This document shows, piece after piece, positions 51,755-64,000 of a stretch of 64,000 nucleotides of DNA. Each line of letters begins with the position of its first letter. The stretch's first letter is position 1. This stretch comes from an uncultured Candidatus Rokubacteria bacterium (GTDB taxonomy: Bacteria; Methylomirabilota; Methylomirabilia; Rokubacteriales; CSP1-6): positions 224,001-288,000 of the forward strand of contig CAWBMV010000012.1 in the NCBI GenBank assembly GCA_963789955.1, written 5' to 3'. A model generated the notes under the pieces. The model worked only from the letters and a program-made list of their open reading frames with translations. It was not told where the DNA came from and searched no databases. Both the position numbers and the translations under genes were made by a program.

Positions 51755-53159
51755 ATGATCTTTCAGCAGATCCTCAACGAAGAGTCGGGCTGTCTGTCCT
51801 ATCTGATCGGCTGCGGGGAGGCCGGGAAAGCTGCTGGTGGTCGATCCCGGCCGTGACCGCGTCCCCGAATACCTCCGCCTCGCCGCGAAGAAGGGCCTCA
51901 CGATCAGCCATATCCTCGAGACGCACACACACGCCGACCACATCTCGGGCGGTCGCGATCTGGCCGAGGCGGTGCGGGCGCCGATCCTCGTTCACCGGAC
52001 CGCCGGGGTCGCCTTCGAGCACCAGGAGGTGAGCGACGGCGACGAGCTCCGGATCGGCAGCGTGCGCTTCAAGATCGCCCACACGCCGGGCCACACGCCC
52101 GACTCGATCTGCCTGATGGTGTCGGACCTGTCCCGTGGCGAGGCCCCGTGGTTCGTCCTGACGGGCGACATGCTGTTCGTCGGCTCCGTCGGACGCCCGG
52201 ATCTCGGCGGCGCCCGCGCCGCGGAGGACGCGTGGGAGAGTCTGCAGCGCGTGCTGCTGCCGCTCGACGACAGCGTCGAGGTCTATCCCGCCCACGGCGC
52301 CGGCTCGGCGTGCGGCAAGGCGATGTCGGCCAAGTCGGGCTCGACGATCGGCTTCGAGCGCCGCTTCAACCCGGCGCTCCAGCTTCGCGGCCGCCAGGAG
52401 TTCGTCGACTTCCTCATGAAGGATCTGCCGCCGAAGCCGCCCTCGTTCGAGAAGATCGTCGGCAAGAACAAGGGGTTGATCTCGCTCGCCGCCGCCAAGC
52501 CGCGGCCGTTCACGGCCCGCGAGGCGTGGGACGCGGTGCAGCGGGGCGAGATCGTCGTGGACCTGCGCGATCCCGGCACCTACGGCGAGATGCACGTCGC
52601 CGGCGCCGTGAACGTGTGGATCGAGAGCCCGCAGTTCGCCGAGCGCGTCGCGGGCATGGTGCCGTCCGGTGCGTCCTTGCTGTTGCTGGCGCAGGGGCCG
52701 TCGGACCTCGACCGCGCCGTGCAGGCGCTCTCGCGCGTGGGCATCGACGAGATCAGCGGCTTTCTCCAGTGGGGCATGATCGAGTGGCGCAGCGAGGGCT
52801 TCCCGGTCGAGTCGGTGCCGCAGATCACGGTGTCCGAGCTCGCCGAGTGGCTCGAGCAGGGACGTGACGTGGCCGTGATCGACGTGCGCGAGCACTCCGA
52901 GTGGATCGACGGCCACATCGACGGCGCGATCCACCTGCCGATGCTCGAAGCCGCGGCGCGGCGCGGCGAGGTGCCGGCCGACCGGCCGAAGGCGGTGCTG
53001 TGCGCCGGGGGCCTGCGCTCGAGCACCGCGATCAGCGCGCTGAAACGCCACGGCCTGCAGGGATGGTACAACGTCACGGGCGGCATGACGGCGTGGAAAC
53101 GGTTCGGCTATCCCGTCGTGCGCTCGTCGTCGGACTCGGGCAGCGCTCCTCGCGCGTGA
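51755..53159 (+). CDS. Persulfide dioxygenase-rhodanese fusion (CstB-like; frameshift near 51830)
   Basis: ETHTHADH, HTPGHT, GDMLFVGSVGRPDL, PAHGAGSACG, two rhodanese domains, last with CAGGLRS. Confidence 0.88.
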
Positions 53160-53208
53160 TCGCCGACAGAAGTGCGAGCCGAAGCGGTGCCTCCGCTGAG
53201 GCGAGCCT

Positions 53209-54406
53209 GTGATCAACGGGCGGTGCAAGCGCTTCAGCAAAGCCGAGCTCGCTCGCTCCGCTGTACGCGGCGGTGTTCGGACGCCCGTGGCTGGTGTGGG
53301 GCTCCGCGGTGCTGGTCGCCACCCTCAACGTCTTCCTCTTCGCCTTCGATCGTCCGTGGACCGCCTCGGACGGGCTCCGGAACTGGGGCGACTGGGTGCT
53401 CACCGGCGTCGGTCTCGTCCGCCGCCCCGACCTCTTGCCGCCCTGGCTCTATTCGGGCTCCCTGCTGAACATCGGCGTCATCGTCGGCGGCACGATCGCG
53501 GCGCTCCTGTCGCGCGAGTTCGCGATCCGCGTGCCGGCGCGCGCCGAGCTCGCCAAGGGGGGCGCCGGCGGGCTCCTGATGGGCGTCGGCGCTGTGCTCG
53601 CCTTCGGCTGCAACATCGGCGGATTCTTCTCGGCGACGAGCGCGCTCTCGCTGTCGGGCCTCGGCATGATGCTCGGGCTCGGCGCCGGCGCGTTCATCGG
53701 GATCCGCTATCTGATCTGGGAAGTCGCGCACCGGCCGCAGTGGTCGCGCGGCGGCGGGCGCATCTATCTGCAGGCGGCGGGTCCGGCGACCGCGGGGCAC
53801 ACGTGGGCCGGAGCGGTCGTCGTCGCCCTGGTCGCGGTGGTGCTCGTTCTCTACACGCGGGCGGGCTACGGGCCGCAAGGCGTGTTCTTGCTCTTCGGCG
53901 CCGCGTTCGGTGTGGTGTTCCAGCGATCCCGGTTCTGTCTGGTGCGCGCTTTCCGTGAGCCGTTCATGACGGGCGACGCCGAGCACACCCGGGCGGCGGC
54001 GCTGGCGCTCGTCGTGGCGACGCTCGGCTTCGCGATCTTGAAGTTCACCGATCTCAAGGACAAGAGCGAGTGGGTGTTCCCGGCGGCGGGGTTCGGCTCG
54101 CTGGCCGGCGGGCTGGCTTTCGGCGTCGGGATGACGCTCGCGGGCGGCTGCGGCGCGGGCTCACTGTGGCGCGCGGGCGAGGGACAGGTGAAGCTCTGGG
54201 CGACCGTCGCGTGCTTCGCCGTGGGCGCGTCGCTGGCGCGGCTGATCGCCGTCCAGACCGGGCTTTTGCAGAAGCTCGGCGCCGCGATCTTCCTGCCGGC
54301 CTGGCTCGGCTGGGGCGGGGCGATCGTGTTGATCGTCGCGATCGCGCTCGCGTGGGCTATGCTGTCGACCTGGAACGAGGAAACGCACACATTCAGCGTG
54401 GTCTAG
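53209..54406 (+). CDS. YeeE/YedE (TsuA/SoxT-like) sulfur-compound transporter (start uncertain, probable frameshift near 53260)
   Basis: LAFGCNIG, QRSRFCLV, LAGGCGAG motifs; multi-TM. Confidence 0.88.
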
Positions 54407-54417
54407 CGGAGGGGCGG

Positions 54418-55674
54418 ATGAAGGAGTCGACCCGAAGAGAATTCCTTCGGACGTCATCCTGGGCAGGGCTCGGGCTGTTCGCCGCGGGTTGCGCGCCGAA
54501 AGTGTCGGACTTCGCCCAGAAGACAGGCCGTCGCGTCGTCGTGATCGGCGGCGGATGGGGCGGCATGTCGGCGGCCAAGTACGTGCGCCTGGCCGATCCG
54601 TCGATCGAGGTCGTGTTGCTCGAGCCGAACAAGGAATTCGTGTCGTGCCCGTTCTCGAACCTGGTCCTGAGCGGCGTGCGCACGATCGACAGCCTGACCT
54701 TCGACTACGACGGCCTGCGGGCCCATGGCGTTCGCGTCCTGCACGAGACGGCCACCATGATCGAGCCCGACCGCAAGCGCGTGCAGGTCGGGAGTGACTC
54801 GCTTCCCTACGACCGGCTCATCGTTTCGCCGGGCGTCGAGTTCCAGTGGGAGCAGGTCGAGGGGCTCGCCGGCGCGCAGGACCGCGTGCTCCACGCCTGG
54901 AAGGCCGGCCCGCAGACCGTGGAGCTGGCGCGCCAGCTCCAGGCGATGCCGGATGGCGGCGTGTTCGTGCTGACGATCCCGCCGGCCGCCTATCGCTGCC
55001 CGCCCGGTCCGTACGAGCGGACGTGCCAGGTCGCGTGGTATTTGAAGAACAACAAGCCGAAGTCGAAGCTGATCGTTCTCGACGCCAACCCGAACATCAT
55101 CTCGAAGACCGCGCTGTTCCGCGCCGCCTGGGCCAACTACCCGAACATCGAATACCGCGGCTCGAACAAGGTCGTGAAGGTCGACCCCGGCGCACGCGAG
55201 GTGACGACGGAGCTCGGCGACAAGGTGAAGTACGACGTGCTGAACCTGATCCCGCCGCAGCGAGCGGGGACGATCGCGGTGACGGCGGACCTGGTCGGCG
55301 CCGACAAGCGCTGGTGCGAGGTCAACCATCTGACCTACGAGTCGGTGAAGCACAAGAACGTTCACGTGATCGGCGATTCGACGATCGGGCTGCCGGTACC
55401 GAAGTCGGGCAACGTCGCCAACGCGATGGGGAAGATCTGCGCGGTCGCGGTCGCGAGCCTGCTCAACGACAAGCCGGTGCCCACGATGGCGCCGGGGAAC
55501 ACCTGCTATAGCTGGGTGAGCGACCGGGAGGCGATCGCGGTCGTCAACAGCTACAAGATCGAGGGCGGCAAGGTCGTGCAGATCGAGCAGAAGCTCACGC
55601 CGGGCCAGTCGGAAGCGTGCGCGCAGAACGCGCTGGGGTGGGCCAACAGTATCTGGCAAGACATGCTCGGCTAG
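54418..55674 (+). CDS. fccB: Flavocytochrome c sulfide dehydrogenase flavoprotein (FccB/SoxF)
   Basis: Tat signal TRREFL, GGGWGG, SCPFSN, YRCPPGPYER, PKSG, NTCYS. Confidence 0.92.
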   Translation: MKESTRREFLRTSSWAGLGLFAAGCAPKVSDFAQKTGRRVVVIGGGWGGMSAAKYVRLADPSIEVVLLEPNKEFVSCPFSNLVLSGVRTIDSLTFDYDGLRAHGVRVLHETATMIEPDRKRVQVGSDSLPYDRLIVSPGVEFQWEQVEGLAGAQDRVLHAWKAGPQTVELARQLQAMPDGGVFVLTIPPAAYRCPPGPYERTCQVAWYLKNNKPKSKLIVLDANPNIISKTALFRAAWANYPNIEYRGSNKVVKVDPGAREVTTELGDKVKYDVLNLIPPQRAGTIAVTADLVGADKRWCEVNHLTYESVKHKNVHVIGDSTIGLPVPKSGNVANAMGKICAVAVASLLNDKPVPTMAPGNTCYSWVSDREAIAVVNSYKIEGGKVVQIEQKLTPGQSEACAQNALGWANSIWQDMLG

Positions 55675-55685
55675 GGCAGGCGAAT

Positions 55686-55792
55686 GATAAAGGCCCATCT
55701 GCTTCGTTGGCGCCCTCGGCCGCACGCTCACCGTACAGAGAGTACGGCTCGCGTGCGGCCTTCGGGCGCCGCCTCGCAGCTGGACCTTTCTC
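55686..55792. repeat. Long imperfect inverted repeat (~107 bp; MITE/REPIN-like)
   Basis: GATAAAGGCCCATCTGC...CCGTAC-agaga-GTACGG...GCAGCTGGACCTTTCTC folds end to end. Confidence 0.75.
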
Positions 55793-55842
55793 ATTCGCCT
55801 GCACGGCTGCTCATACGCCTACATGGTGCGAAAGGACATAGG

Positions 55843-56430
55843 ATGCGACTCTTTGTGAGTCTGCTTCTCATGCTGCTGATGTTGGCCGGGCCGGTGTGGG
55901 CGGGGCCGTTGGATATGGCGGGGGCGCCGCAGGCGCTGGTGTGTAGTGCTTGTCATGGCTTTGCGGGGCAGAGTCGATCGAGCACGATGCCGATCCTCGC
56001 GGGCATGGCTCCCTGGTATTTCAAGAAGGCGATCTCGGATTACGCGGCGGGCAAGCGGCCGTCGCCCGAGATGGAACCCTACGCGAAGATGGTGCTGCAG
56101 TCGGGTGTGGATGACATCGCCGCCTACTTCGCAGCTCAGGCGCGGACGCCGTCGCCGGTCAAGCTCGAGCCCGCGGCGATCGAACGCGGGCGGGCCGCCG
56201 CCGCCCAGTGCACGCTCTGCCACGGCGCCTCGGGCAAGGGTGATCCGTCCAAGGGCGTGCCCGACCTCACGGGCCAGTCGCCGGGATATCTGCGCAACCA
56301 GATGCTCCTGTTCAAGGCCGACCGGCGAAGCCCCGGTGACGATCAGCTCAAGGCCGTGAAGGTGCTGATGCGGACCATCCCCGACGAGCAGATCTCCGAC
56401 CTCGCGGCCTACTGGTCGAGCGTCCGCTAA
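55843..56430 (+). CDS. Di-heme cytochrome c4 (FccA/SoxE-like)
   Basis: Signal peptide, CSACH and CTLCH, LAG..Y / LTGQ..YL. Confidence 0.9.
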   Translation: MRLFVSLLLMLLMLAGPVWAGPLDMAGAPQALVCSACHGFAGQSRSSTMPILAGMAPWYFKKAISDYAAGKRPSPEMEPYAKMVLQSGVDDIAAYFAAQARTPSPVKLEPAAIERGRAAAAQCTLCHGASGKGDPSKGVPDLTGQSPGYLRNQMLLFKADRRSPGDDQLKAVKVLMRTIPDEQISDLAAYWSSVR

Positions 56431-57234
56431 GTGGCGTTCGCCGATGGAGCGATTCTCGTCGCGCTCGGGCTCGCGGTCGGAGCCTTCGGAACGCTCATCG
56501 GCGCCGGCGGCGGATTCATCCTCGTTCCCATCCTGGTCCTCGGCTACCACTTTCCGCCGGCTCAGGCCGTCGGCACGTCGCTGTCGCTCGTCTTTCTCAA
56601 CGCGGCGTCGGGAAGCGTGGCCTATCTTCGTCAGCGGCGGGTCGATCTCTCGCTCGGCTGGAAGTTCGCCGCGTCGACGATCCCCGGGGCCATCATCGGG
56701 GCCTTTCTCACGCGGTCGATCTCCTCGTCGCTGTTCAACCTGCTGTTCGGCATCGTGCTGCTCGCGATCGCGGTGCTGCTCTTCTCCGGCATCACGGCGG
56801 CGCCGTCGAGCCGCGCCGGGGTCCGCCAGGTGGTCGACGCCTCCCGTGAGGCGCACACCTACCGGGTCGACGTCTGGAAGGGCGTGGTCGTCAGCCTGCT
56901 CGTCGGGTTCATGTCGAGCATCCTCGGCATCGGCGGCGGCATCATCCACGTGCCGTTCCTGATCGTCGCGCTGAGCCTGCCGATCCACATCGCCACCGCC
57001 ACCTCCCACTTCGTCCTGAGCATCTCGGCCTTCGTCGGGGCGGTGACGTTCCTGGCGCTCGGCAACGTCGATCTCCGCACCGTCGCGCTCATGGGCGCCG
57101 GTATCCTCGTCGGCGCGCAGCTCGGGGCGCGGGCGTCGCTTCGCGCCGGCGCGACCTTGATCCGGCGGATCCTGGCCGGCTCGCTCGCCGTCGTCGGGCT
57201 CCGGATGATCTTGCAGGGGCTCGGCCGTGCGTAG
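56431..57234 (+). CDS. TauE/SafE family sulfite exporter
   Basis: GAGGGFILVP, AVGTSL, LGIGGGIIHVP, ATATS. Confidence 0.92.
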   Translation: MAFADGAILVALGLAVGAFGTLIGAGGGFILVPILVLGYHFPPAQAVGTSLSLVFLNAASGSVAYLRQRRVDLSLGWKFAASTIPGAIIGAFLTRSISSSLFNLLFGIVLLAIAVLLFSGITAAPSSRAGVRQVVDASREAHTYRVDVWKGVVVSLLVGFMSSILGIGGGIIHVPFLIVALSLPIHIATATSHFVLSISAFVGAVTFLALGNVDLRTVALMGAGILVGAQLGARASLRAGATLIRRILAGSLAVVGLRMILQGLGRA

Positions 57235-57245
57235 GCTCGTCTGAC

Positions 57246-58796
57246 ATGCGCTACGGCTTCGTGATCGATCAGCGCCGATGCATCGGCTGTCACGCGTGCA
57301 CGGTGGCGTGTAAAGAGGAAAATCGTGTCCCGCTCGGCGCGTTCCGCACCTGGGTGAAATACATCGAGCGCGGCAGCTTCCCGAACACGCGCCGCTACTT
57401 CTCCGTGCTCCGCTGCAATCACTGCGACTCGGCACCCTGCGTGACCATCTGTCCGACCGTCGCCCTCTACCGGCGCGACGACGGCATCGTCGATTTCGAC
57501 GGCGCTCGCTGCATCGGCTGCAAGTCGTGCATGCAGGCCTGCCCGTACGACGCGCTCTACATCGACCCGGAGACGCAGACGGCGGCGAAGTGCAACTACT
57601 GCGCGCATCGGGTCGAGGTCGGCCTCGAGCCCGCGTGCGTCATCGTGTGCCCGGAGCAAGCGATCATCGCCGGCGACCTCGACGATCCCGCCTCGCAGAT
57701 CGCCACGATCGTGGCGCGCGAGCCGGTGCAGGTGAGAAAGGCCGAGCAGGGTACGCGGCCCAAGGTGTTCTACCTCGGCGCCGACGCCGCCGCGCTCACC
57801 CCGGAGCTTCAGATCCCGTCGGAGCGCTACCTCTGGGCCCAGCGACCGGCCGAGGAGGTCGACCTGATCAGGATGGTCGCCGCCGCGCAGGAGGCGGATC
57901 ACGCGCGCGGCGGCGCGGCGCTCAGCCGGCCCGTGTACGACGTGCCGCACGCCGTCCGCCCCTGGGGCTGGAAGGTCTCCGCGTATCTGTGGACGAAATC
58001 CGTCTCGGCCGGCGCGCTGCTCGTGGCGGCTTTCGCCGGCTCCGAATCGTGGGGCAGCCTCTTCACCGGCGCCGCGCCGGCGCTGAGTCTCCTCTTCCTG
58101 GCCATCACGACGGCGCTGCTGGTCGCCGACCTCAAGCGGCCCGAGCGCTTCGCCTACATCTTGCTGAAGCCGAACTGGCGCTCGTGGCTCGTGTGGGGCG
58201 CGTGGATCTTGATGGCGTTCGGCATCACCGGCGCCGTGTGGCTCATCGGCGGCGTGACGGGACGGTCGGGCCTGCTCCACCTGGCGCTGATTCCGTCGAT
58301 CCTGCTGGCGCTCGCCACCGCGGGCTACAGCGCGTTCCTGTTCGGACAGGCCGAGGGACGAGATTTCTGGCAGAGCCCGCTCGTGCTGCCGCACCTGATC
58401 ATCGCCGCCGTGGTCGCGGGCGCCGCGACCCTGTCGGTCGCTGCGGCGATGGCGCCGCTTCAGAGCACGGAGGCGGACCCGAGCGCGACCTTGTGGCCGC
58501 TCCTGTTCCTGTCCCTGGTGGCTCACGGTTTTCTCGTCGCGCTCGAGGTGTTCAATCGGCACGCGGTCCACGACGCGACGCTCGCGGCGCGCCTGATCCG
58601 GCGCGGACCGTATCGCGCGCGCTTCTGGGGCGGCGTGGTGCTGGGCGGCGTGGTCGCGCCGATGGCGCTGATGATCGCCGGCGCGGCATCGGACTCGACC
58701 ACCGTGAGCACCCTCGGCGCGCTGCTCGCGCTGGCCGGTCTCTGGGTGTGGGAGGACTTGTGGGTGAGGGCCGGGCAGTCGGTTCCGCTGAGCTGA
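57246..58796 (+). CDS. Fused 4Fe-4S electron-transfer subunit (PsrB/TtrB-like) and NrfD/PsrC membrane anchor
   Basis: CIGCHACTVAC, CNHCDSAPCVTICP, CIGCKSCMQACPY, KCNYC; then W..SAYLW, DLKRPERF, SWL.WGAWIL and TM helices in one frame. Confidence 0.92.
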   Translation: MRYGFVIDQRRCIGCHACTVACKEENRVPLGAFRTWVKYIERGSFPNTRRYFSVLRCNHCDSAPCVTICPTVALYRRDDGIVDFDGARCIGCKSCMQACPYDALYIDPETQTAAKCNYCAHRVEVGLEPACVIVCPEQAIIAGDLDDPASQIATIVAREPVQVRKAEQGTRPKVFYLGADAAALTPELQIPSERYLWAQRPAEEVDLIRMVAAAQEADHARGGAALSRPVYDVPHAVRPWGWKVSAYLWTKSVSAGALLVAAFAGSESWGSLFTGAAPALSLLFLAITTALLVADLKRPERFAYILLKPNWRSWLVWGAWILMAFGITGAVWLIGGVTGRSGLLHLALIPSILLALATAGYSAFLFGQAEGRDFWQSPLVLPHLIIAAVVAGAATLSVAAAMAPLQSTEADPSATLWPLLFLSLVAHGFLVALEVFNRHAVHDATLAARLIRRGPYRARFWGGVVLGGVVAPMALMIAGAASDSTTVSTLGALLALAGLWVWEDLWVRAGQSVPLS

Positions 58797-58824
58797 GACC
58801 GTTCGCTATGACGATAGGACGACC

Positions 58825-61653
58825 ATGACAGATCGCGCGGCCATACCGCTCCATCCCGTGGCCCGGGAGATCGCCGAATCCCAGGGCGGCCTCAAGAGCT
58901 ACCCGCCCGTCGAGCGCTGGGACAACTGGGAAGAGTACGATCCGGTCGCGTGGCCGCAGAAGGTCAAGCGCCGCTACTCGCTGATCCCGACGATCTGCTT
59001 CAACTGCGAGGCGGGCTGCGGCCTGCTCGCCTACGTCGATCGCGAGACGCTCGCGATCCAGAAGTTCGAAGGCAACCCCGCCCACCCCGGGAGCCGCGGG
59101 CGCAACTGCGCCAAAGGCCCCGCGACGCTCAACCAGGTGACCGACCCGGAGCGGATCCGCTATCCGCTGCGCCGGGTCGGCCCCCGCGGGGGCGGGCGGT
59201 GGGAGCGGGTCACGTGGGACGAAGTGCTCGACGACATCGGCGGGCGCATTCGCAAGGCCCTGGTCGAGGGCCGGCAGCGCGAAATCATGTACCACCTGGG
59301 CCGGCCGGGACACGAGCTCGTCTATCTCCAGCGCGTCTTCCACGCCTGGGGCATCGACGGCCACAACAGCCATACGAACGTCTGTTCGGCGAGCGCGCGA
59401 GCGGGCTACGCCTTCTGGCACGGCATGGACCGCCCGTCGCCCGACCACGCCAACGCGCGCTTCATCCTGCTCCTGTCCTCGCACCTGGAGACCGGCCACT
59501 ACTTCAACCCGCACGCCCAGCGAATCATGGAAGCCAAGTCGCGCGGCGCCAAGATCGCCGTGTTCGACACGCGGCTCAGTAACACCGCGTCGATGGCCGA
59601 CTGGTGGGTGGCGCCGTGGCCGGGGTCGGAGTCCGCCGTGCTCCTGGCGATGGCGCATATCCTCGTGCGCGAGAAGCTCTACGACCGCGAGTTCGTCCGC
59701 CGCTGGGTGAACTGGGACGAGTACCTGCGCGAGGAGCGCCCCGATCTGCCGGTCACGTTCGACTCGTTCGAGCGCGCGATCGACGAGCTCTACGCGCACT
59801 TCACCCCGGAGTACGCCGAAGCCGAGAGCAGCGTCCCGGCCGCGACGATCGTCGAGATCGCGCGCGAGATCGGCCGCGCCGGCTCGGCGCTGGCGACCCA
59901 CATCTGGCGCAATACCGCCGCCGGCAACCTCGGCGGCTGGCAGGTCGCGCGCGCGCTCGAGCTGATCGTGGTGCTCATGGGCGCGGTCGGCACGCCCGGC
60001 GGCACCGCGCCCAGCGCCTGGAACAAGGCGGTGCCGGCGCCGCCGATGATGCCGCCGCCGGGCAAGATCTGGAGTGAGCTCCTGATGCCGCGCGAGTACC
60101 CGCTCGCGTTCTTCGAGATGAGCTTCCTGCTCCCGCATTTCCTGCGCGAAGGCCGCGGCAAGCTCGCGATGTACTTCACGCGCGTCTACAACCCGGTGTG
60201 GACGAATCCCGATGGGATGTCGTGGATCGAGGCGCTCACCGACGAGACGAAAGTGGAGCGCCACGCGTGCCTGACGCCGATCTGGAGCGAGACGGCGTGG
60301 TTCGCGGACTACGTGTTGCCGATGGGGCACGCCTCGGAGCGCCACGACCTCATGTCGCAGGAGACGCACGCCGCGCGGTGGATCGGCTTCCGCCAGCCCG
60401 TGCTGCGCGTCGCGCTCGAGCGAGCGGGCAAGCGCTTCGATCTCACCTGGCAGGCGCACGAGGCGGCCGGCATCGGACAGGTCTGGGAGGAGGACGAGTT
60501 CTGGATCGAGCTCTCCTGGCGGATCGACCCCGACGGCTCGCTCGGCATCCGGAAGTACTTCGAGTCGCCGTATCGGCCGGGCGAGAAGCTCCGCATCGAG
60601 GAGCAGTACCGGTGGATGTTCGAGAACAGCGTGCCCGGGCTTCCGGCCGCGGCCGCGAAGGAGCAGCTGACGCCGCTCGAGTACATGCGCAAGTACGGCG
60701 CGTTCCTGATCGAGGACGGCGTGTACCGCACGCACGAGCAGGCGCCCGGCGCGAAAGACCTGGACGGCGCGACCGTCGATCCCGTCACGAGTGTCATCAA
60801 CAAGGGCGGACAGCCGGTCGGCGTCGAGATCGACGGCCGGCGGCACATCGGCTTTCCCACGCCCTCACGCAAGCTCGAGTTCTTCTCGAACACCTTGAAG
60901 TCGTGGAAGTGGCCGGACCAGGCGGTGCCGAACTACATCCGGAGCCACGTCCACTGGTCGAACCTCGATCGCGCCAAGGGCGAGATGGTGCTGCTGCCGA
61001 CGTTCAGGCTCCCGACCTTGATCCACACGCGCTCGGGCAACGCGAAGTGGCTCTACGAGATCTCCCACTCGAATCCGCTCTGGCTCCATCCCGAGGACGC
61101 CACGCGGCTCGGCGTGGCGACCGGCGATCTCCTGAAGATCGCGACGCGGATCGGCCACTTCGTCGACCGGGTGTGGGTGACCGAGTCGGTGCGTCCCGGC
61201 GTGGTGGCGTGCTCACATCACCTCGGGCGGTGGCGTCTGCACGAGGACGCGGGCGGTGAGCGGTGGTCGACGTCGCTCGTCGATCTGAGCCGGCTCGACG
61301 CCGGCAAGTGGCGGATGCGTCAGCTCCACGGTCCGCGACCGTTTCCGAGCGACGATCCGGATTCGTCGCGGGTCTGGTGGAACGAGGCCGGCGTCCACCA
61401 GAACCTGACGTTCCCGGTCCAGCCCGATCCGGTCAGCGGCCAGCACTGCTGGCATCAGAAGGTGACCGTGATGCGGCCGGGCCCCGACGACCGTTACGGC
61501 GACGTCTTCGTCGACACGGACAAGTCGTTCGAGGTCTACCGCGAGTGGCTGGCGCTGGCCCGTCCGGCGCCCGGTCCCGACAATCTGCGGCGCCCGCTGT
61601 GGCTCCCGCGGGCGTTCAAGCCCGACGCGTCCGCCTACAAGATCGGGCCCTGA
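58825..61653 (+). CDS. DMSO-reductase-family molybdopterin catalytic subunit (Psr/Ttr-related), no Tat signal
   Basis: CFNCEAGC..CAKG FeS site, HNSHTNVCS, SETAWFADYVLP, HTRSGN. Confidence 0.9.
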   Translation: MTDRAAIPLHPVAREIAESQGGLKSYPPVERWDNWEEYDPVAWPQKVKRRYSLIPTICFNCEAGCGLLAYVDRETLAIQKFEGNPAHPGSRGRNCAKGPATLNQVTDPERIRYPLRRVGPRGGGRWERVTWDEVLDDIGGRIRKALVEGRQREIMYHLGRPGHELVYLQRVFHAWGIDGHNSHTNVCSASARAGYAFWHGMDRPSPDHANARFILLLSSHLETGHYFNPHAQRIMEAKSRGAKIAVFDTRLSNTASMADWWVAPWPGSESAVLLAMAHILVREKLYDREFVRRWVNWDEYLREERPDLPVTFDSFERAIDELYAHFTPEYAEAESSVPAATIVEIAREIGRAGSALATHIWRNTAAGNLGGWQVARALELIVVLMGAVGTPGGTAPSAWNKAVPAPPMMPPPGKIWSELLMPREYPLAFFEMSFLLPHFLREGRGKLAMYFTRVYNPVWTNPDGMSWIEALTDETKVERHACLTPIWSETAWFADYVLPMGHASERHDLMSQETHAARWIGFRQPVLRVALERAGKRFDLTWQAHEAAGIGQVWEEDEFWIELSWRIDPDGSLGIRKYFESPYRPGEKLRIEEQYRWMFENSVPGLPAAAAKEQLTPLEYMRKYGAFLIEDGVYRTHEQAPGAKDLDGATVDPVTSVINKGGQPVGVEIDGRRHIGFPTPSRKLEFFSNTLKSWKWPDQAVPNYIRSHVHWSNLDRAKGEMVLLPTFRLPTLIHTRSGNAKWLYEISHSNPLWLHPEDATRLGVATGDLLKIATRIGHFVDRVWVTESVRPGVVACSHHLGRWRLHEDAGGERWSTSLVDLSRLDAGKWRMRQLHGPRPFPSDDPDSSRVWWNEAGVHQNLTFPVQPDPVSGQHCWHQKVTVMRPGPDDRYGDVFVDTDKSFEVYREWLALARPAPGPDNLRRPLWLPRAFKPDASAYKIGP

Positions 61654-61717
61654 GGCGCGAATCGACTGTTGGGCTGGACGCATCCTGGATAATGCGAGAT
61701 TGGCAGGAGGGCGAACG

Positions 61718-62215
61718 ATGATGGACGGTTCCCGGATACCCCGGCGCCAGGCGTTGAAGACGCTCGGGGCGCTCGGCGTCGGCGCTGCCGCGAGCGGTCT
61801 CGCGCCGGTGAAGACCGCGCACGCGCAGGCCCCGACGCTCGGCCAGAACGAGAGCGTGCAGGACGCGATGAAGCGGCTCTTTGGCGGCAAGACCATCAAG
61901 GACGGCTCCGCCATCATCAAGTTCGACATCCCGCTCATCGCCGAGAACGGCAGCGTGGTGCCGGTGGCGGTCAGTGTCGACTCGCCGATGACCGCGTCGA
62001 GCTACGTGAAGCACATCTACGTCGTGGCCGACAAGAACCGTATTCCCGTCGTCACGCGGGTGACCCTGGCGCCGGAGGCGGGCAAGGCCTCGGTGGGCGC
62101 GAACATCCGGCTCGGCGAGACCGGTGAGGTGCGCGCGATCGTGGAGCAGAGCGACGGCACCCTGCTGCAGGTCGCGCGCGAAGTGAAAGTCACCGTCGGC
62201 GGCTGCGGAGGCTGA
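61718..62215 (+). CDS. soxY: Thiosulfate carrier SoxY
   Basis: Tat RRQAL, PLIAENGSVVPV, C-terminal VKVTVGGCGG. Confidence 0.95.
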   Translation: MMDGSRIPRRQALKTLGALGVGAAASGLAPVKTAHAQAPTLGQNESVQDAMKRLFGGKTIKDGSAIIKFDIPLIAENGSVVPVAVSVDSPMTASSYVKHIYVVADKNRIPVVTRVTLAPEAGKASVGANIRLGETGEVRAIVEQSDGTLLQVAREVKVTVGGCGG

Positions 62216-62218
62216 GCG

Positions 62219-62552
62219 ATGTCAGACATCGGGAAGGTCCGGCTCCGCATTCCCTCGACGCATCAAGCCCGGTGACGTCGTTCAGGTGCGTTCGCTCGTG
62301 ATCCATCCGATGGAGCGCATCGAGCGCGACGCGCAGGGCAAGATCCTCCAGAAGAACTACAACTACATCAACAAGGTCACGGTGACCTACCTCGGGAAGA
62401 CCGTCGCGGTCTTCGATACGACCCAGAGCGTGGCCGAGAATCCGTTCTTCTCGTTCACGTTCAAGGCGACCGATCCGGGCCAGCTCAAGGTCGAGTTCCT
62501 CGACACGACGGGCGGCCGGTACGAAGGCACCGCCGACATCAAGTTCTCGTGA
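62219..62552 (+). CDS. soxZ: SoxZ (frameshift near 62262)
   Basis: VRSLVIHPME, SVAENPFFSF; directly follows soxY. Confidence 0.88.
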
Positions 62553-62563
62553 TCGTCGCTGTC

Positions 62564-63877
62564 ATGACCGGCGCGACGGCGCGCCGGGCGCTGCGCTGGG
62601 CGGCGTTCGCGATGCTGAGCGCCGGCTGCGCTGGCACCAGCCCTCGACGTGCCCGACTACAACGCCGTCCCGAAGTGGACGTCGCGCGCGTTGCCCGAGG
62701 CGCGCGGCGAGTTCCGTACCGGGCCCGACGGCAAGCGGGTGGCGGTTCGCTACCCCGGATGGACGACGCGCGACTTCGATCGCTATCCGACCTACGCCTA
62801 CGGCGACGAGCGCATCGAGCCCTCGGTGCAGCGCGTGACGATGCCGGCGGGCGTCACCGGCGACGCCCAGAAGGGGCGCGCGCTCTTTCTGAGCCGGAGC
62901 AAGGGGCCGTGTATCGGCTGCCACCTGGTGCCGGGTGACGACGTCTGGCCCGCCGGAAGCGCCGGTCCCGACCAGTCCACGCTCGCCGATCGGAAGCTTC
63001 CGGATCAGTACCTGTATCAGGTGATCTGGGATGCTCGCGCGTACTTCCCGAACACGATCATGCCGCCGTGGGGAGCCACAGGGGTCTTGAGCTCCGAGGA
63101 GATCGTGCACGTCGTCGCCTATCTGCAGACGCTCAAGGGGCCGGCGGCGCCCGAGAAGGACCGGGAACGGAATCCGTTCACGCGTTCGAAGCCGGTGGGG
63201 TTCGGCGACAACCTCGATCCGACGAACAACCCGGCGGTGGTGCTGGCCGACGACGGCGAGGCGCTGTGGACCGCGCGCGGCCCCTCGGGCAAGGCGTGCG
63301 CCGACTGCCACGAGAGTGGCGCGGCGCGCGCGATGCGCGGCGTGGCGACGCAGTATCCAAAGTTCGTGAAGCCGTACGGGCGCGTGATGAGCCTCGAGGA
63401 TTTTCTCGAGGTGCACGCCCCGGAGACGACCGGCCGGGCGATGGCGAGCCAGTCGGCCGACAACCTCGACATGACGATGTTCGTCAAGCGCGCGTCGAAC
63501 GGGCTGCCGGTGAAGCGTCGACGTCGCGAGCCCCGAGGCGCGGGCGGCGCTCGCGCGGGGCAAGGCGACCTTCTATCGCAAGGTGGGCGAGCGGAACCAC
63601 TCGTGTGCCGACTGTCATACGACCGAGGCCGCGGCGGGGAAGTTCCTCGGCGGCCGCGTGCTCGCCGACGTCCGAGCCGGGATTGACCCGACATTTTCCG
63701 ACCTGGCGGACCGATCGCGCCGAGGTCTGGGACATGCGCAAGCGCTTCCAGTGGTGCATGACGCCACTCGGGATGAACATGCTCGCCGCCGATTCCATCG
63801 AGTACGCCGAGCTCGAGCTCTACCTGACCTCCTTCGACAACGGCAAGCCGCTCAACGTGCCCGGGATCCGCCACTAG
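62564..63877 (+). CDS. soxXA: Fused SoxX-SoxA cytochrome (frameshifts near 62645, 63510, 63672)
   Basis: Lipobox LSAGC; SoxX part KGPCIGCH..TIMPPWG continues in frame into SoxA part CADCH..YPK, second CADCH, RFQWC, ELELYL. Confidence 0.85.
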
Positions 63878-63880
63878 CGC

Positions 63881-64000
63881 ATGGACGTCTCGCGGCGCGA
63901 TCTGGTCAAGCTGCTCGCGGTCGCGGCGGGCGCTGGGCTCGCACCGCGCCGTCTCGAAGCCGCCGACGGCCCGGACCGGCTCCTCGCGTTCGAGCCGCTC
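63881..64000 (+). CDS. Tat-exported protein, probable SoxB N-terminus (runs off the window)
   Basis: MDVSRRDLVKLL Tat signal 3 bp after soxXA; identity inferred from gene order only. Confidence 0.5.
   Translation, partial: MDVSRRDLVKLLAVAAGAGLAPRRLEAADGPDRLLAFEPL

What the first reader, a model, noticed from the sequence alone, without database searches (positions are those of the whole stretch)
51755..64000. Sox cluster joined to a cytoplasmic PDO / Mo-enzyme module: candidate alternative sulfur-oxidation route
Seen: one co-oriented run of persulfide dioxygenase-rhodanese, YeeE, FCSD, di-heme cytochrome, TauE, FeS-NrfD fusion, Tat-less Mo subunit, soxY, soxZ, soxXA and probable soxB; no soxCD, dsr or shdr genes in the window. 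Established: Sox systems lacking SoxCD leave sulfane sulfur that is imported through YeeE-type SoxT transporters; PDOs make sulfite; TauE exports sulfite. Inference: sulfane sulfur goes via YeeE to PDO to sulfite, then to the quinone-linked Mo complex or TauE, a third option beside rDsr and sHdr.
Basis: partly seen in the sequence, partly recalled or inferred. Interest (0 to 1): 0.75.

Follow-up and report, generated by a model that had tools for sequence, protein, structure and literature searches.

The report
Rokubacterial sulfur-oxidation cluster lacking SoxCD
A soil bacterium of the uncultured Rokubacteria keeps an incomplete thiosulfate-oxidising Sox system next to a persulfide-oxidising enzyme that probably makes thiosulfate rather than sulfite and an untested inward-facing molybdenum enzyme, which in several relatives is replaced at the same spot by the classic sulfite-oxidising genes, so it most likely oxidises sulfite.

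Summary
The gene run is real and ends soxB–thioredoxin–LysR. No soxCD, dsrAB, aprA or sHdr was found in this 87%-complete genome. Two corrections. (1) The 'PDO' is CstB-type (C201-G202 loop, C408), and CstB releases thiosulfate, not sulfite, so the direct PDO→sulfite→Mo link is doubtful; a thiosulfate-recycling loop fits better. (2) The Mo/CstB module is not Sox-dependent: Mo is in 104 of 124 order genomes, soxB in 57, and 8 of 14 same-genus genomes have a soxC elsewhere. New support for the Mo enzyme as a sulfite:quinone oxidoreductase: aprA (8 of 124) and dsrA-like genes (5 of 124) occur only in genomes lacking it, in at least three lineages, and sat-aprBA-qmoABC or dsr fill the same slot upstream of soxY. 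Its pocket has ArrA-like oxyanion residues. PDO finishing a truncated Sox is already published (Cupriavidus, Beggiatoa). This scan noted the cluster and the enzyme (as PSRLC3-like) before on other DNA. Verdict: new variant of a known kind; nothing is biochemically shown.

The parts
51755..53159 (+). CstB-type persulfide dioxygenase (MBL + pseudo-rhodanese + rhodanese); frameshift near 51832, probably an assembly error
   Evidence: Pfam; the intact 93%-identical orthologue hits PDB 3TP9 (256 bits) and 3R2U (205 bits), canonical PDOs at most 116 bits; motifs; indel
53273..54406 (+). YeeE/YedE sulfur transporter with both CxxG-type cysteine motifs (C113, C293)
   Evidence: PF04143 163 bits; below TsuA and YedE cut-offs; cysteines
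54419..55674 (+). Flavocytochrome c sulfide dehydrogenase flavoprotein (FccB/SoxF type) with twin-arginine and lipobox-like N-terminus
   Evidence: PF21706, PF09242; N-terminus read from the translation
55686..55802 (.). Dispersed palindromic intergenic repeat, not part of the pathway
   Evidence: 13 blastn hits of 40 nt or more in the genome, self-hit and its inverse included; very high contig depth
55843..56430 (+). Di-heme cytochrome c (FccA-like) with signal peptide
   Evidence: PF00034; two CxxCH motifs
56431..57234 (+). TauE/SafE exporter (sulfite or thiosulfate); many relatives have a different TauE paralogue (27-35% identical) in the same slot
   Evidence: PF01925 181 bits
57246..58796 (+). 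NrfC/PsrB-type 4Fe-4S subunit fused to an NrfD/PsrC membrane anchor; starts MRYGF, no export signal
   Evidence: PF13247 + PF03916; beside the Mo gene in 71 of 80 loci
58825..61653 (+). Tat-less Mo/W-bisPGD catalytic subunit (CFNCEAGC; G159-R160; H182-T183-x-x-C186; R191) of a widespread uncharacterised clade, probably PSRLC3-like
   Evidence: Pfam; below every NCBIfam cut-off (best PhsA 200 of 694); model pLDDT 91, fold ties ArrA Z 30.9 and PsrA Z 30.3
61718..62215 (+). SoxY with C-terminal GGCGG arm
   Evidence: TIGR04488 above cut-off
62219..62552 (+). SoxZ (frameshift near 62255)
   Evidence: PF08770
62549..63877 (+). Fused SoxXA (frameshifts near 63513 and 63690, probably also near 62645)
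   Evidence: TIGR04485 above cut-off, TIGR04484 in two pieces
63881..64000 (+). Start of soxB (continues about 1.6 kb beyond the window; frameshift at L001 ~4675)
   Evidence: TIGR04486 323 + 412 bits in two frames

Best explanation
An aerobic sulfide/thiosulfate oxidation cluster without SoxCD, Dsr or sHdr. Outside: FCSD plus its cytochrome oxidises sulfide to sulfane sulfur, and SoxXA/YZ/B turn thiosulfate into sulfate plus SoxY-bound sulfane (established chemistry; genes shown). YeeE passes the sulfane inward (inferred from SoxT1A). Inside, the CstB-type dioxygenase uses O2 to join two persulfides into thiosulfate (inferred from conserved CstB residues). Thiosulfate is either exported (TauE or YeeE) and fed to Sox again, or split by a rhodanese/TusA into persulfide plus sulfite (inferred). 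The two-subunit Mo enzyme oxidises cytoplasmic sulfite to sulfate and reduces quinone, doing the job that Sat-AprBA-QmoABC does in sister lineages (inferred from replacement pattern, pocket residues and orientation). The Mo/CstB/TauE part is the conserved core; soxXAB is an optional thiosulfate inlet. Odds by step: CstB-type thiosulfate formation about 0.75; Mo enzyme as sulfite:quinone oxidoreductase about 0.65; YeeE carrying Sox-derived sulfane about 0.6.
For: Replacement: aprA in 8 of 124 genomes, 0 of 104 Mo-positive and 8 of 20 Mo-negative; dsrA-like in 5, all Mo- and PDO-negative. sat-aprBA-qmoABC, or the part the contig holds, lies directly upstream of soxY in G070, G071, G103, G104, G106, qmoC in G087, and dsrABC-MKJOP in G069. 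These genomes fall in at least three separate places on an RpoB tree, each beside Mo-positive genomes. CstB residues H56, H119, D145, R154, G198, C201, G202, R370, C408, R413 are kept in 9 of 10 full-length rokubacterial loci; no gshB above cut-off; heme-copper oxidases present. The Mo pocket aligns with ArrA R165 (As(V)-binding per PMC12949373) and the His-Ser-x-x-Cys motif, where PsrA has His and no such His. Sulfur neighbours without sox in other phyla: DsrE + TusA + CstB-type MBL in Rhodococcus jostii, MBL-rhodanese + TauE in Halomicrococcus, a CsoR-like regulator in Thermomicrobium; comA-TauE in G116 and G118. G045 (4 contigs, 95%) has the whole cluster with no soxC, dsrA or aprA.
Against: No activity of this Mo clade is shown here or in any paper I could read. 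If CstB releases no sulfite, the sulfite source is a further inference, and the cluster holds no TusA (3 TusA-domain matches lie elsewhere). CstB L205, called invariant in PMC12934615, is Met here, P200 is Ala, and one relative (L014) lacks C201. The genome has a periplasmic SorAB-type pair (SorA 461 of 600 bits, SorB above cut-off) that could take exported sulfite. 8 of 14 same-genus genomes have soxC above cut-off. The direction of the rokubacterial Dsr/Apr is not settled (their DsrA scores below the TIGR02064 cut-off), so 'replacement' assumes they run oxidatively. By sequence the nearest named families are PhsA/PsrA, and ComA consumes sulfite, which fits a sulfite producer as well. 12 of 20 Mo-negative genomes have no aprA. 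All genomes are incomplete MAGs.
Confidence: 0.5

Rival explanations
1. One reading: the dioxygenase releases free sulfite, which goes straight to the Mo complex or out through TauE.
For: PDO, TauE and Mo genes are co-oriented and co-occur (95 of 124 genomes have both Mo and PDO); canonical PDO oxidises sulfane to sulfite in a soxCD deletion (PMC9959259 abstract); L205 is not conserved.
Against: Architecture and the C201-G202/C408 pair match CstB, which gives thiosulfate only; no gshB above cut-off.
Confidence: 0.2
2. The Mo enzyme is a cytoplasm-facing reductase (Psr/Phs-like) that cleaves thiosulfate or poly/persulfide, for example the thiosulfate made by CstB.
For: Best NCBIfam and PDB sequence matches are PhsA and PsrA; fold tie with PsrA; comA neighbour needs sulfite; CstB would supply thiosulfate in the same compartment.
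Against: No Tat signal; pocket has Arg160 and His182 like ArrA, unlike PsrA; thiosulfate reduction by menaquinol is uphill (potentials recalled) and an inward-facing site would not be driven by the proton motive force as in Phs (inference); mutual exclusion with Apr.
Confidence: 0.12
3. The module is a stand-alone sulfide/persulfide detoxification unit that merely neighbours sox; Sox sulfane is finished by a solitary SoxCD where present, or left as sulfur.
For: 59 of 104 Mo genomes lack soxB; Mo-soxB association p = 0.22; soxC above cut-off in 23 of 57 soxB genomes against 13 of 67 without; no RuBisCO; loci titled Acidobacteriota, Planctomycetota or delta proteobacterium carry the Mo pair with no sox gene in the flank.
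Against: soxY sits within 7 kb of Mo in 33 of 42 genomes; 24 of 57 soxB genomes have Mo and PDO but no soxC above cut-off and no dsr (22 if two with split soxC pieces are set aside); the solitary soxC has a mono-heme partner of about 180 aa, lies at different sites in different relatives, and the region syntenic to its site in G022 is assembled in this genome without it.
Confidence: 0.13
4. The Mo enzyme acts on arsenic or another non-sulfur oxyanion.
For: Gly-Arg motif shared with As-metabolising enzymes (PMC12949373 passage); top fold match ArrA; a 33%-identical relative lies in an ars island of Azoarcus.
Against: ArrA model score 109 of 1600; ArrA Y166 is Pro here; the recurring neighbours are sulfur genes; exclusion with Apr.
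Confidence: 0.05

Closest known systems
Truncated Sox plus PDO in Cupriavidus pinatubonensis soxCD deletion (PMC9959259) and Beggiatoa leptomitoformis (PMC11507549)
   Same: SoxCD-less Sox whose sulfane sulfur is oxidised by a dioxygenase and returned to Sox as thiosulfate; 21 of 62 incomplete-Sox species had PDO and no DsrAB (section 3.5).
   Different: There a glutathione-dependent PDO gives sulfite that forms thiosulfate chemically. Here a CstB-type enzyme, YeeE, TauE, FCSD and a Mo complex are in one natural cluster with sox.
PSRLC3 of green sulfur bacteria
   Same: Two-gene polysulfide-reductase-like complex (PMC5473276 passage) described as an alternative sulfite-oxidising system (PMC6338057 passage). 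Earlier scan notes file this clade there. That it is found in strains lacking Sat-Apr-Qmo is recalled, not seen.
   Different: Orthology could not be tested here; context is aerobic, with CstB and sox rather than rDsr.
SoeABC sulfite:quinone oxidoreductase (Allochromatium, Aquifex)
   Same: Cytoplasmic, Cys-ligated Mo enzyme oxidising sulfite (table in PMC10100899).
   Different: Three subunits against two here (B and C fused); no SoeA sequence was obtained for comparison; motif differences are recalled only.
Staphylococcus aureus CstB and cst operon
   Same: PDO-pseudorhodanese-rhodanese with C201-G202 loop, G198, R154, R370, C408, R413; TauE as operon partner (recalled).
   Different: L205 is Met, P200 Ala; partners are FCSD, YeeE, Sox and a Mo complex instead of SQR and CstA (cst operon content recalled).
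Truncated Sox with SoxT1A import and sHdr in Hyphomicrobium denitrificans (PMC11582611)
   Same: YeeE-family transporter beside a truncated Sox, a candidate for moving SoxY sulfane inward.
   Different: No sHdr or LbpA here; SoxT1 clade membership not tested.
ArrA (6CZ7) and PsrA (2VPW)
   Same: Nearest solved folds: Z 30.9, rmsd 3.0, 710 aligned; Z 30.3, rmsd 2.9, 684 aligned.
   Different: Both are Tat-exported and periplasmic; 22-25% identity.

Membership tests
Truncated Sox system | SoxY (GGCGG), SoxZ, SoxX, SoxA, SoxB in a cluster | tested here: met
   soxZ, soxXA and soxB are frameshifted here but intact in relatives
Truncated Sox system | No SoxCD in the genome | tested here: met
   best TIGR04555 score 132 of 420; genome only 87% complete; the site syntenic to the soxC of G022 is assembled without it
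CstB-type persulfide dioxygenase | MBL + pseudo-rhodanese + rhodanese with His-His-Asp iron triad | tested here: met
CstB-type persulfide dioxygenase | C201-G202 loop with G198, R154; rhodanese C408 with R370, R413 | tested here: met
   alignment to 3R2U; 9 of 10 full-length rokubacterial loci; same motifs read in the window sequence
CstB-type persulfide dioxygenase | F148 and L205 invariant (PMC12934615) | tested here: inconclusive
   F148 kept, L205 is Met
CstB-type persulfide dioxygenase | Thiosulfate as sole product | not testable with these tools
   needs an enzyme assay
Canonical glutathione-dependent PDO (ETHE1 type) | No CstB loop; closest to ETHE1, 4YSB, BpPRF | tested here: not met
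   CstB loop present; those chains score 70-116 bits against 205-256
PSRLC3 | Two genes: fused FeS/NrfD subunit and Mo subunit | tested here: met
   'two genes' from the PMC5473276 passage; the fusion as a PSRLC3 trait comes from earlier scan notes and recall
PSRLC3 | Orthology with the green-sulfur-bacterial protein | not testable with these tools
   no Chlorobiaceae genome or sequence could be reached; the defining papers are not held
SoeABC | Tat-less, Cys-ligated Mo subunit with NrfD-type anchor | tested here: met
SoeABC | Separate SoeB and SoeC genes | tested here: not met
   fused in one 516-aa ORF
SoeABC | Falls in the bSreA/SoeA clade | not testable with these tools
   no SoeA model among NCBIfam hits and no record named SoeA among plasmid rows shown
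PsrA/PhsA | Tat signal and PhsA model above cut-off | tested here: not met
   no twin arginine; 200 of 694 bits
ArrA/ArxA | Gly-Arg and His-Ser-x-x-Cys pocket motifs | tested here: met
   G159-R160, H182-T183-x-x-C186
ArrA/ArxA | Tat signal and ArrA model above cut-off | tested here: not met
   109 of 1600 bits
SoxT1 (YeeE family) | Full-length YeeE with conserved channel cysteines | tested here: inconclusive
   377 aa, two CxxG cysteines found; the third, N-terminal cysteine was not located
SoxT1 (YeeE family) | Groups with SoxT1 in a tree | not tested
   no reference sequences fetched
sHdr pathway | shdrC1B1AHC2B2 with LbpA | tested here: not met
   no HdrA-family match; one GcvH-family gene only; CCG genes assigned elsewhere

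The most novel reading that the evidence does not exclude
CstB, a sulfurtransferase step and the two-subunit Mo enzyme form a complete, glutathione-free cytoplasmic cycle (persulfide to thiosulfate, thiosulfate to persulfide plus sulfite, sulfite to sulfate plus quinol) that is a true energy-conserving alternative to rDsr, sHdr and SoxCD. It is swapped as a cassette with dsr and sat-apr-qmo upstream of soxY, and makes most Rokubacteriales, and many other soil lineages with this Mo clade, overlooked aerobic sulfur oxidisers.
Probability: 0.2. Interest if true: 0.8.

Novelty: new variant of a known kind. Interest (0 to 1): 0.5.

Why it matters
Truncated Sox systems without rDsr, sHdr or SoxCD are a recognised leftover class (PMC13500833 methods passage), and how they finish sulfur oxidation is open. 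The slot swap with sat-apr-qmo and dsr gives an independent genomic argument for the role of a very common, never-assayed Mo enzyme (at least 8000 clustered homologues). It also changes how soil Rokubacteria are scored: standard marker sets would call them sulfur depositors. Cultured, harmless carriers of the same enzyme (Rhodococcus jostii RHA1, Thermomicrobium roseum, haloarchaea) make the test practical.

Tried and rejected
soxCD directly downstream: rejected. The SorA-like gene on C22 as SoxC: rejected (461 bits SorA against 132 SoxC, with a SorB partner). The second sox-like cluster on C15 as the missing part: it has fccB-soxX-soxY(AACIE)-soxZ-soxA, no soxB or soxC. NIR_SIR genes as Dsr: both are NirA/SirA-type. 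Frameshifts as decay of the cluster: rejected, relatives are intact. A direct test against green-sulfur-bacterial PSRLC3 could not be made. My recalled locus tags CT2240/CT2241 for it look wrong, since 10.1101/172254 places CT2251-CT2238 in the dsr cluster, and the search with them found nothing. No SoeA-named record appeared in two plasmid searches. The ESM Atlas gave only automatic names. Promoter and terminator scan: at chance level. RNA runs: contigs of 4 runs from 3 studies cover 29-30 of 30 bins, but they are contigs from mixed relatives, cannot show strand or level, and I laid no silent control, so I do not count this as proof of transcription. Fisher p-values overstate because kin are not independent; I lean on the tree. 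The soxY search at E<=1e-36 missed some real soxY genes (G064 has one at the locus), so 52 of 124 is a floor. No complex prediction was run.
Full report
Setting. The window lies on contig C12 of a 6.77-Mb, 38-contig genome, 87.2% complete and 5.1% contaminated. The closest relatives of the Mo subunit (93-94% identity) are in records titled Rokuibacteriota/Methylomirabilota, so I treat it as a rokubacterium.

Observation. Beyond the window soxB is completed and followed by a TlpA-like thioredoxin, an opposite-strand LysR, isocitrate lyase and TCA genes; no soxCD appears in the next 36 kb. Frameshifts break the dioxygenase, soxZ, soxXA and soxB, but relatives have whole frames and RNA contigs of two runs lack the extra base at 51832. 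I read them as assembly errors.

What the genome lacks. Three sulfite-oxidase-family genes exist: a Tat-signalled SorA-like gene (461 bits on SorA, 132 on SoxC) with a SorB cytochrome above cut-off, a short stand-alone member, and MsrP. Both siroheme enzymes are NirA/SirA-type. No dsrA, aprA or HdrA-family gene was found, no RuBisCO and no gshB above cut-off. Heme-copper oxidases are present. A second cluster on C15 has fccB-soxX-soxY(AACIE)-soxZ-soxA without soxB. Absence from an incomplete genome is not proof. It helps that the region syntenic to the soxC site of the close relative G022 is assembled here, on C1, with a different insert.

Co-occurrence. I searched all 124 genomes of the order at 85% completeness or more, this one included. 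Mo subunit: 104. Dioxygenase at E<=1e-70: 104, 95 with both. soxB: 57. soxY lies within 7 kb of the Mo gene in 33 of 42 genomes with both, soxB within 12 kb in 25 of 45; in the other cases the two are on different contigs. So the link is real. But 59 of 104 Mo genomes have no soxB, G003, G063 and G064 have soxY beside Mo with no soxB found, and among 80 loci from other species soxY is in 16 and soxB in 7 while the fused FeS/NrfD partner is in 71. The Mo pair with CstB and TauE is the core, and soxXAB is an add-on. These tallies include three genomes marked unpublished (G100, G006, G099); no conclusion rests on them alone.

Against a clean 'no SoxCD' story. soxC is above cut-off in 36 of 124 genomes, including 8 of 14 of the same genus, plus one split over two contigs. 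Of the soxC contexts I read, only G005 and G108 have it inside a sox cluster, with a divergent soxB and a 344-355-aa SoxD. In the eight others it is solitary, with a cytochrome of about 170-195 aa (mono-heme in the two checked), at varying sites. Of 57 soxB genomes, 23 have soxC; 24 have Mo and dioxygenase but neither soxC above cut-off nor dsr, among them G045 (4 contigs, 95% complete), which has the whole cluster. Whether a solitary SoxCD serves Sox is unknown.

The slot swap. dsrA-like genes occur in 5 of 124 genomes and aprA in 8 of 124. All of these lack the Mo gene, and the five dsr genomes also lack the dioxygenase. In G070, G071, G103, G104 and G106, sat-aprBA-qmoABC, or as much of it as the contig holds, runs directly into soxY-soxZ-soxXA; G087 has qmoC there at a contig end; G069 has dsrABC-MKJOP there. 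On an RpoB tree of 25 of 30 chosen genomes (5 gave no RpoB), they fall in at least three places: G079 beside Mo-positive G052 (support 100), G103/G106 beside G078 (100), and G069/G070/G085 in a clade that includes Mo-positive G088. Sat-Apr-Qmo is the established cytoplasmic route between sulfite and sulfate, so the simplest reading is that the Mo enzyme does the same job. Caveats: three lineages are few, these are MAGs, 12 of 20 Mo-negative genomes have no aprA, and the direction of these deep-branching Dsr/Apr systems is not fixed.

The dioxygenase. An intact orthologue, 93% identical, matches the Alicyclobacillus MBL-rhodanese protein (3TP9, 256 bits) and 3R2U (205 bits), which I recognise as S. 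aureus CstB from recall and from its residue pattern; canonical PDOs score 70-116. The iron triad, R154, G198, C201-G202, R370, C408 and R413 are kept in 9 of 10 full-length rokubacterial loci (two of the nine are identical) and in the window sequence; L205 is Met. PMC12934615 (abstract and passages) shows that CstB shuttles an S-sulfonate from C201 to C408 and releases thiosulfate only. The thiosulfate can be exported and re-enter Sox, or be split by a TusA/rhodanese into persulfide and sulfite, as described for TsuB (PMC11582611 passage).

The Mo enzyme. It scores below every NCBIfam cut-off (best PhsA 200 of 694). The model (pLDDT 91) ties between ArrA (Z 30.9) and PsrA (Z 30.3). In sequence alignment, R160 matches ArrA R165, which binds As(V) (PMC12949373 passage), and H182-T183-x-x-C186 and R191 match ArrA's His-Ser-x-x-Cys and following Lys (the roles of those last residues are recalled from Glasser 2018, not seen). 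PsrA has His where this protein has R160 and lacks the His before the ligand. These residues are unchanged in all 35 locus-derived rows of the alignment and in the Thermomicrobium, Rhodococcus, haloarchaeal and Sulfurovum relatives. That points to oxygen-atom transfer on an oxyanion rather than S-S cleavage. With an inward-facing site, sulfite to quinone is downhill and quinol to thiosulfate uphill (potentials recalled). Outside Rokubacteria the pair sits with DsrE, TusA and a CstB-type protein in Rhodococcus jostii, with an MBL-rhodanese and TauE in Halomicrococcus, and behind a CsoR-like regulator in Thermomicrobium; Natrinema shows no sulfur neighbour. In G116 and G118 it follows comA and tauE.

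What is known. A dioxygenase finishing a SoxCD-less Sox by way of thiosulfate is published for Cupriavidus (PMC9959259, abstract and section 3.5) and Beggiatoa (PMC11507549, abstract and conclusions). Methylomirabilota are listed as Sox carriers, and truncated Sox without rDsr or SoxCD is a defined class (PMC13500833, abstract, passages, sections 6 and 10); its supplementary tables, not opened, may list these genomes. PMC10100899 (passages) notes unnamed Cys-ligated lineages near the Psr/Arr/Ttr group. Earlier notes of this scan describe the rokubacterial cluster and call the enzyme PSRLC3-like; I could confirm only that PSRLC3 is a two-gene complex regarded as an alternative sulfite-oxidising system (PMC5473276, PMC6338057 passages), not the orthology. 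I also read passages of 10.1101/172254 and 10.1101/2020.05.14.086363. Searches listed no title or abstract describing this cluster, its CstB-type enzyme or the swap with Apr/Dsr in Rokubacteria; the library lacks most subscription papers and I read only those named above. The CstB-family alignment in the supplement of PMC12934615 was not seen and may bear on L205.

Verdict. Observation confirmed; interpretation partly supported. It is a natural, conserved cluster for SoxCD-, Dsr- and sHdr-free sulfur oxidation, most likely through a CstB thiosulfate loop and a PSRLC3-like sulfite:quinone oxidoreductase. New variant of a known kind, interest 0.5.

Noticed in passing
L001:5580-6125 (just beyond the window, after soxB): TlpA/ResA-like thioredoxin with an in-frame TGA at the first Cys of its CxxC motif; 26 of 31 homologous matches have a stop there and 5 have Cys; selA and a tRNA-Sec are in the genome. 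Probably a selenoprotein and a candidate SoxS/SoxW-like reductant of SoxYZ; it stays with sox also in the dsr and apr lineages.
   Followed up: partly
L083:8450-11718 (G000 contig C15): Second sox-like cluster fccB-soxX-soxY(AACIE arm)-soxZ-soxA without soxB, next to a xanthine-dehydrogenase-family operon.
   Followed up: partly
L084:5036-6572 (G000 contig C22): Tat-signalled SorA-like gene with a SorB cytochrome above cut-off: a periplasmic sulfite dehydrogenase.
   Followed up: partly
window 55686-55802: Palindromic intergenic repeat between FCSD and cytochrome genes, 13 blastn hits of 40 nt or more in the genome, far higher contig depth than its flanks in 3 of 4 RNA runs.
   Followed up: partly
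window 53167-53218: A 52-bp stretch between the dioxygenase and yeeE that an RNA contig of run X1 skips; strain-level insertion.
   Followed up: no
window 56431-57234: The tauE here is only 27-35% identical to the tauE in the same slot of most close relatives: the gene was exchanged but the function kept.
   Followed up: partly
L159:7505-13609 and L160:6735-12811: In G116 and G118 the Mo pair follows phosphosulfolactate synthase comA and tauE, with no sox.
   Followed up: no
L161:3868-20000 (G069): A deep-branching dsrABC-MKJOP operon with siroheme genes abuts soxY-soxZ-soxXA-soxB, which hints that this rokubacterial Dsr may run oxidatively.
   Followed up: partly
L145-L151, L174: Solitary soxC with a short cytochrome at varying sites in many Rokubacteriales, often among PQQ-dehydrogenase genes, also in genomes without soxB.
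   Followed up: partly
L175:17477-18781, L003, L005: Some relatives carry a second soxXA copy on the opposite strand between the Mo gene and soxY.
   Followed up: no
L108:7284-15175 (Azoarcus plasmid): A 33%-identical Mo enzyme with separate FeS and NrfD genes and a TorD chaperone inside an arsenic-resistance island; possibly the sister group of this clade.
   Followed up: no
L168:14726-15832, L205:8822-9928: A lipoate-protein-ligase-like gene lies between qmoC and soxY in the apr lineages (the L205 copy is matched by length and position only), with no sHdr seen in those stretches.
   Followed up: no
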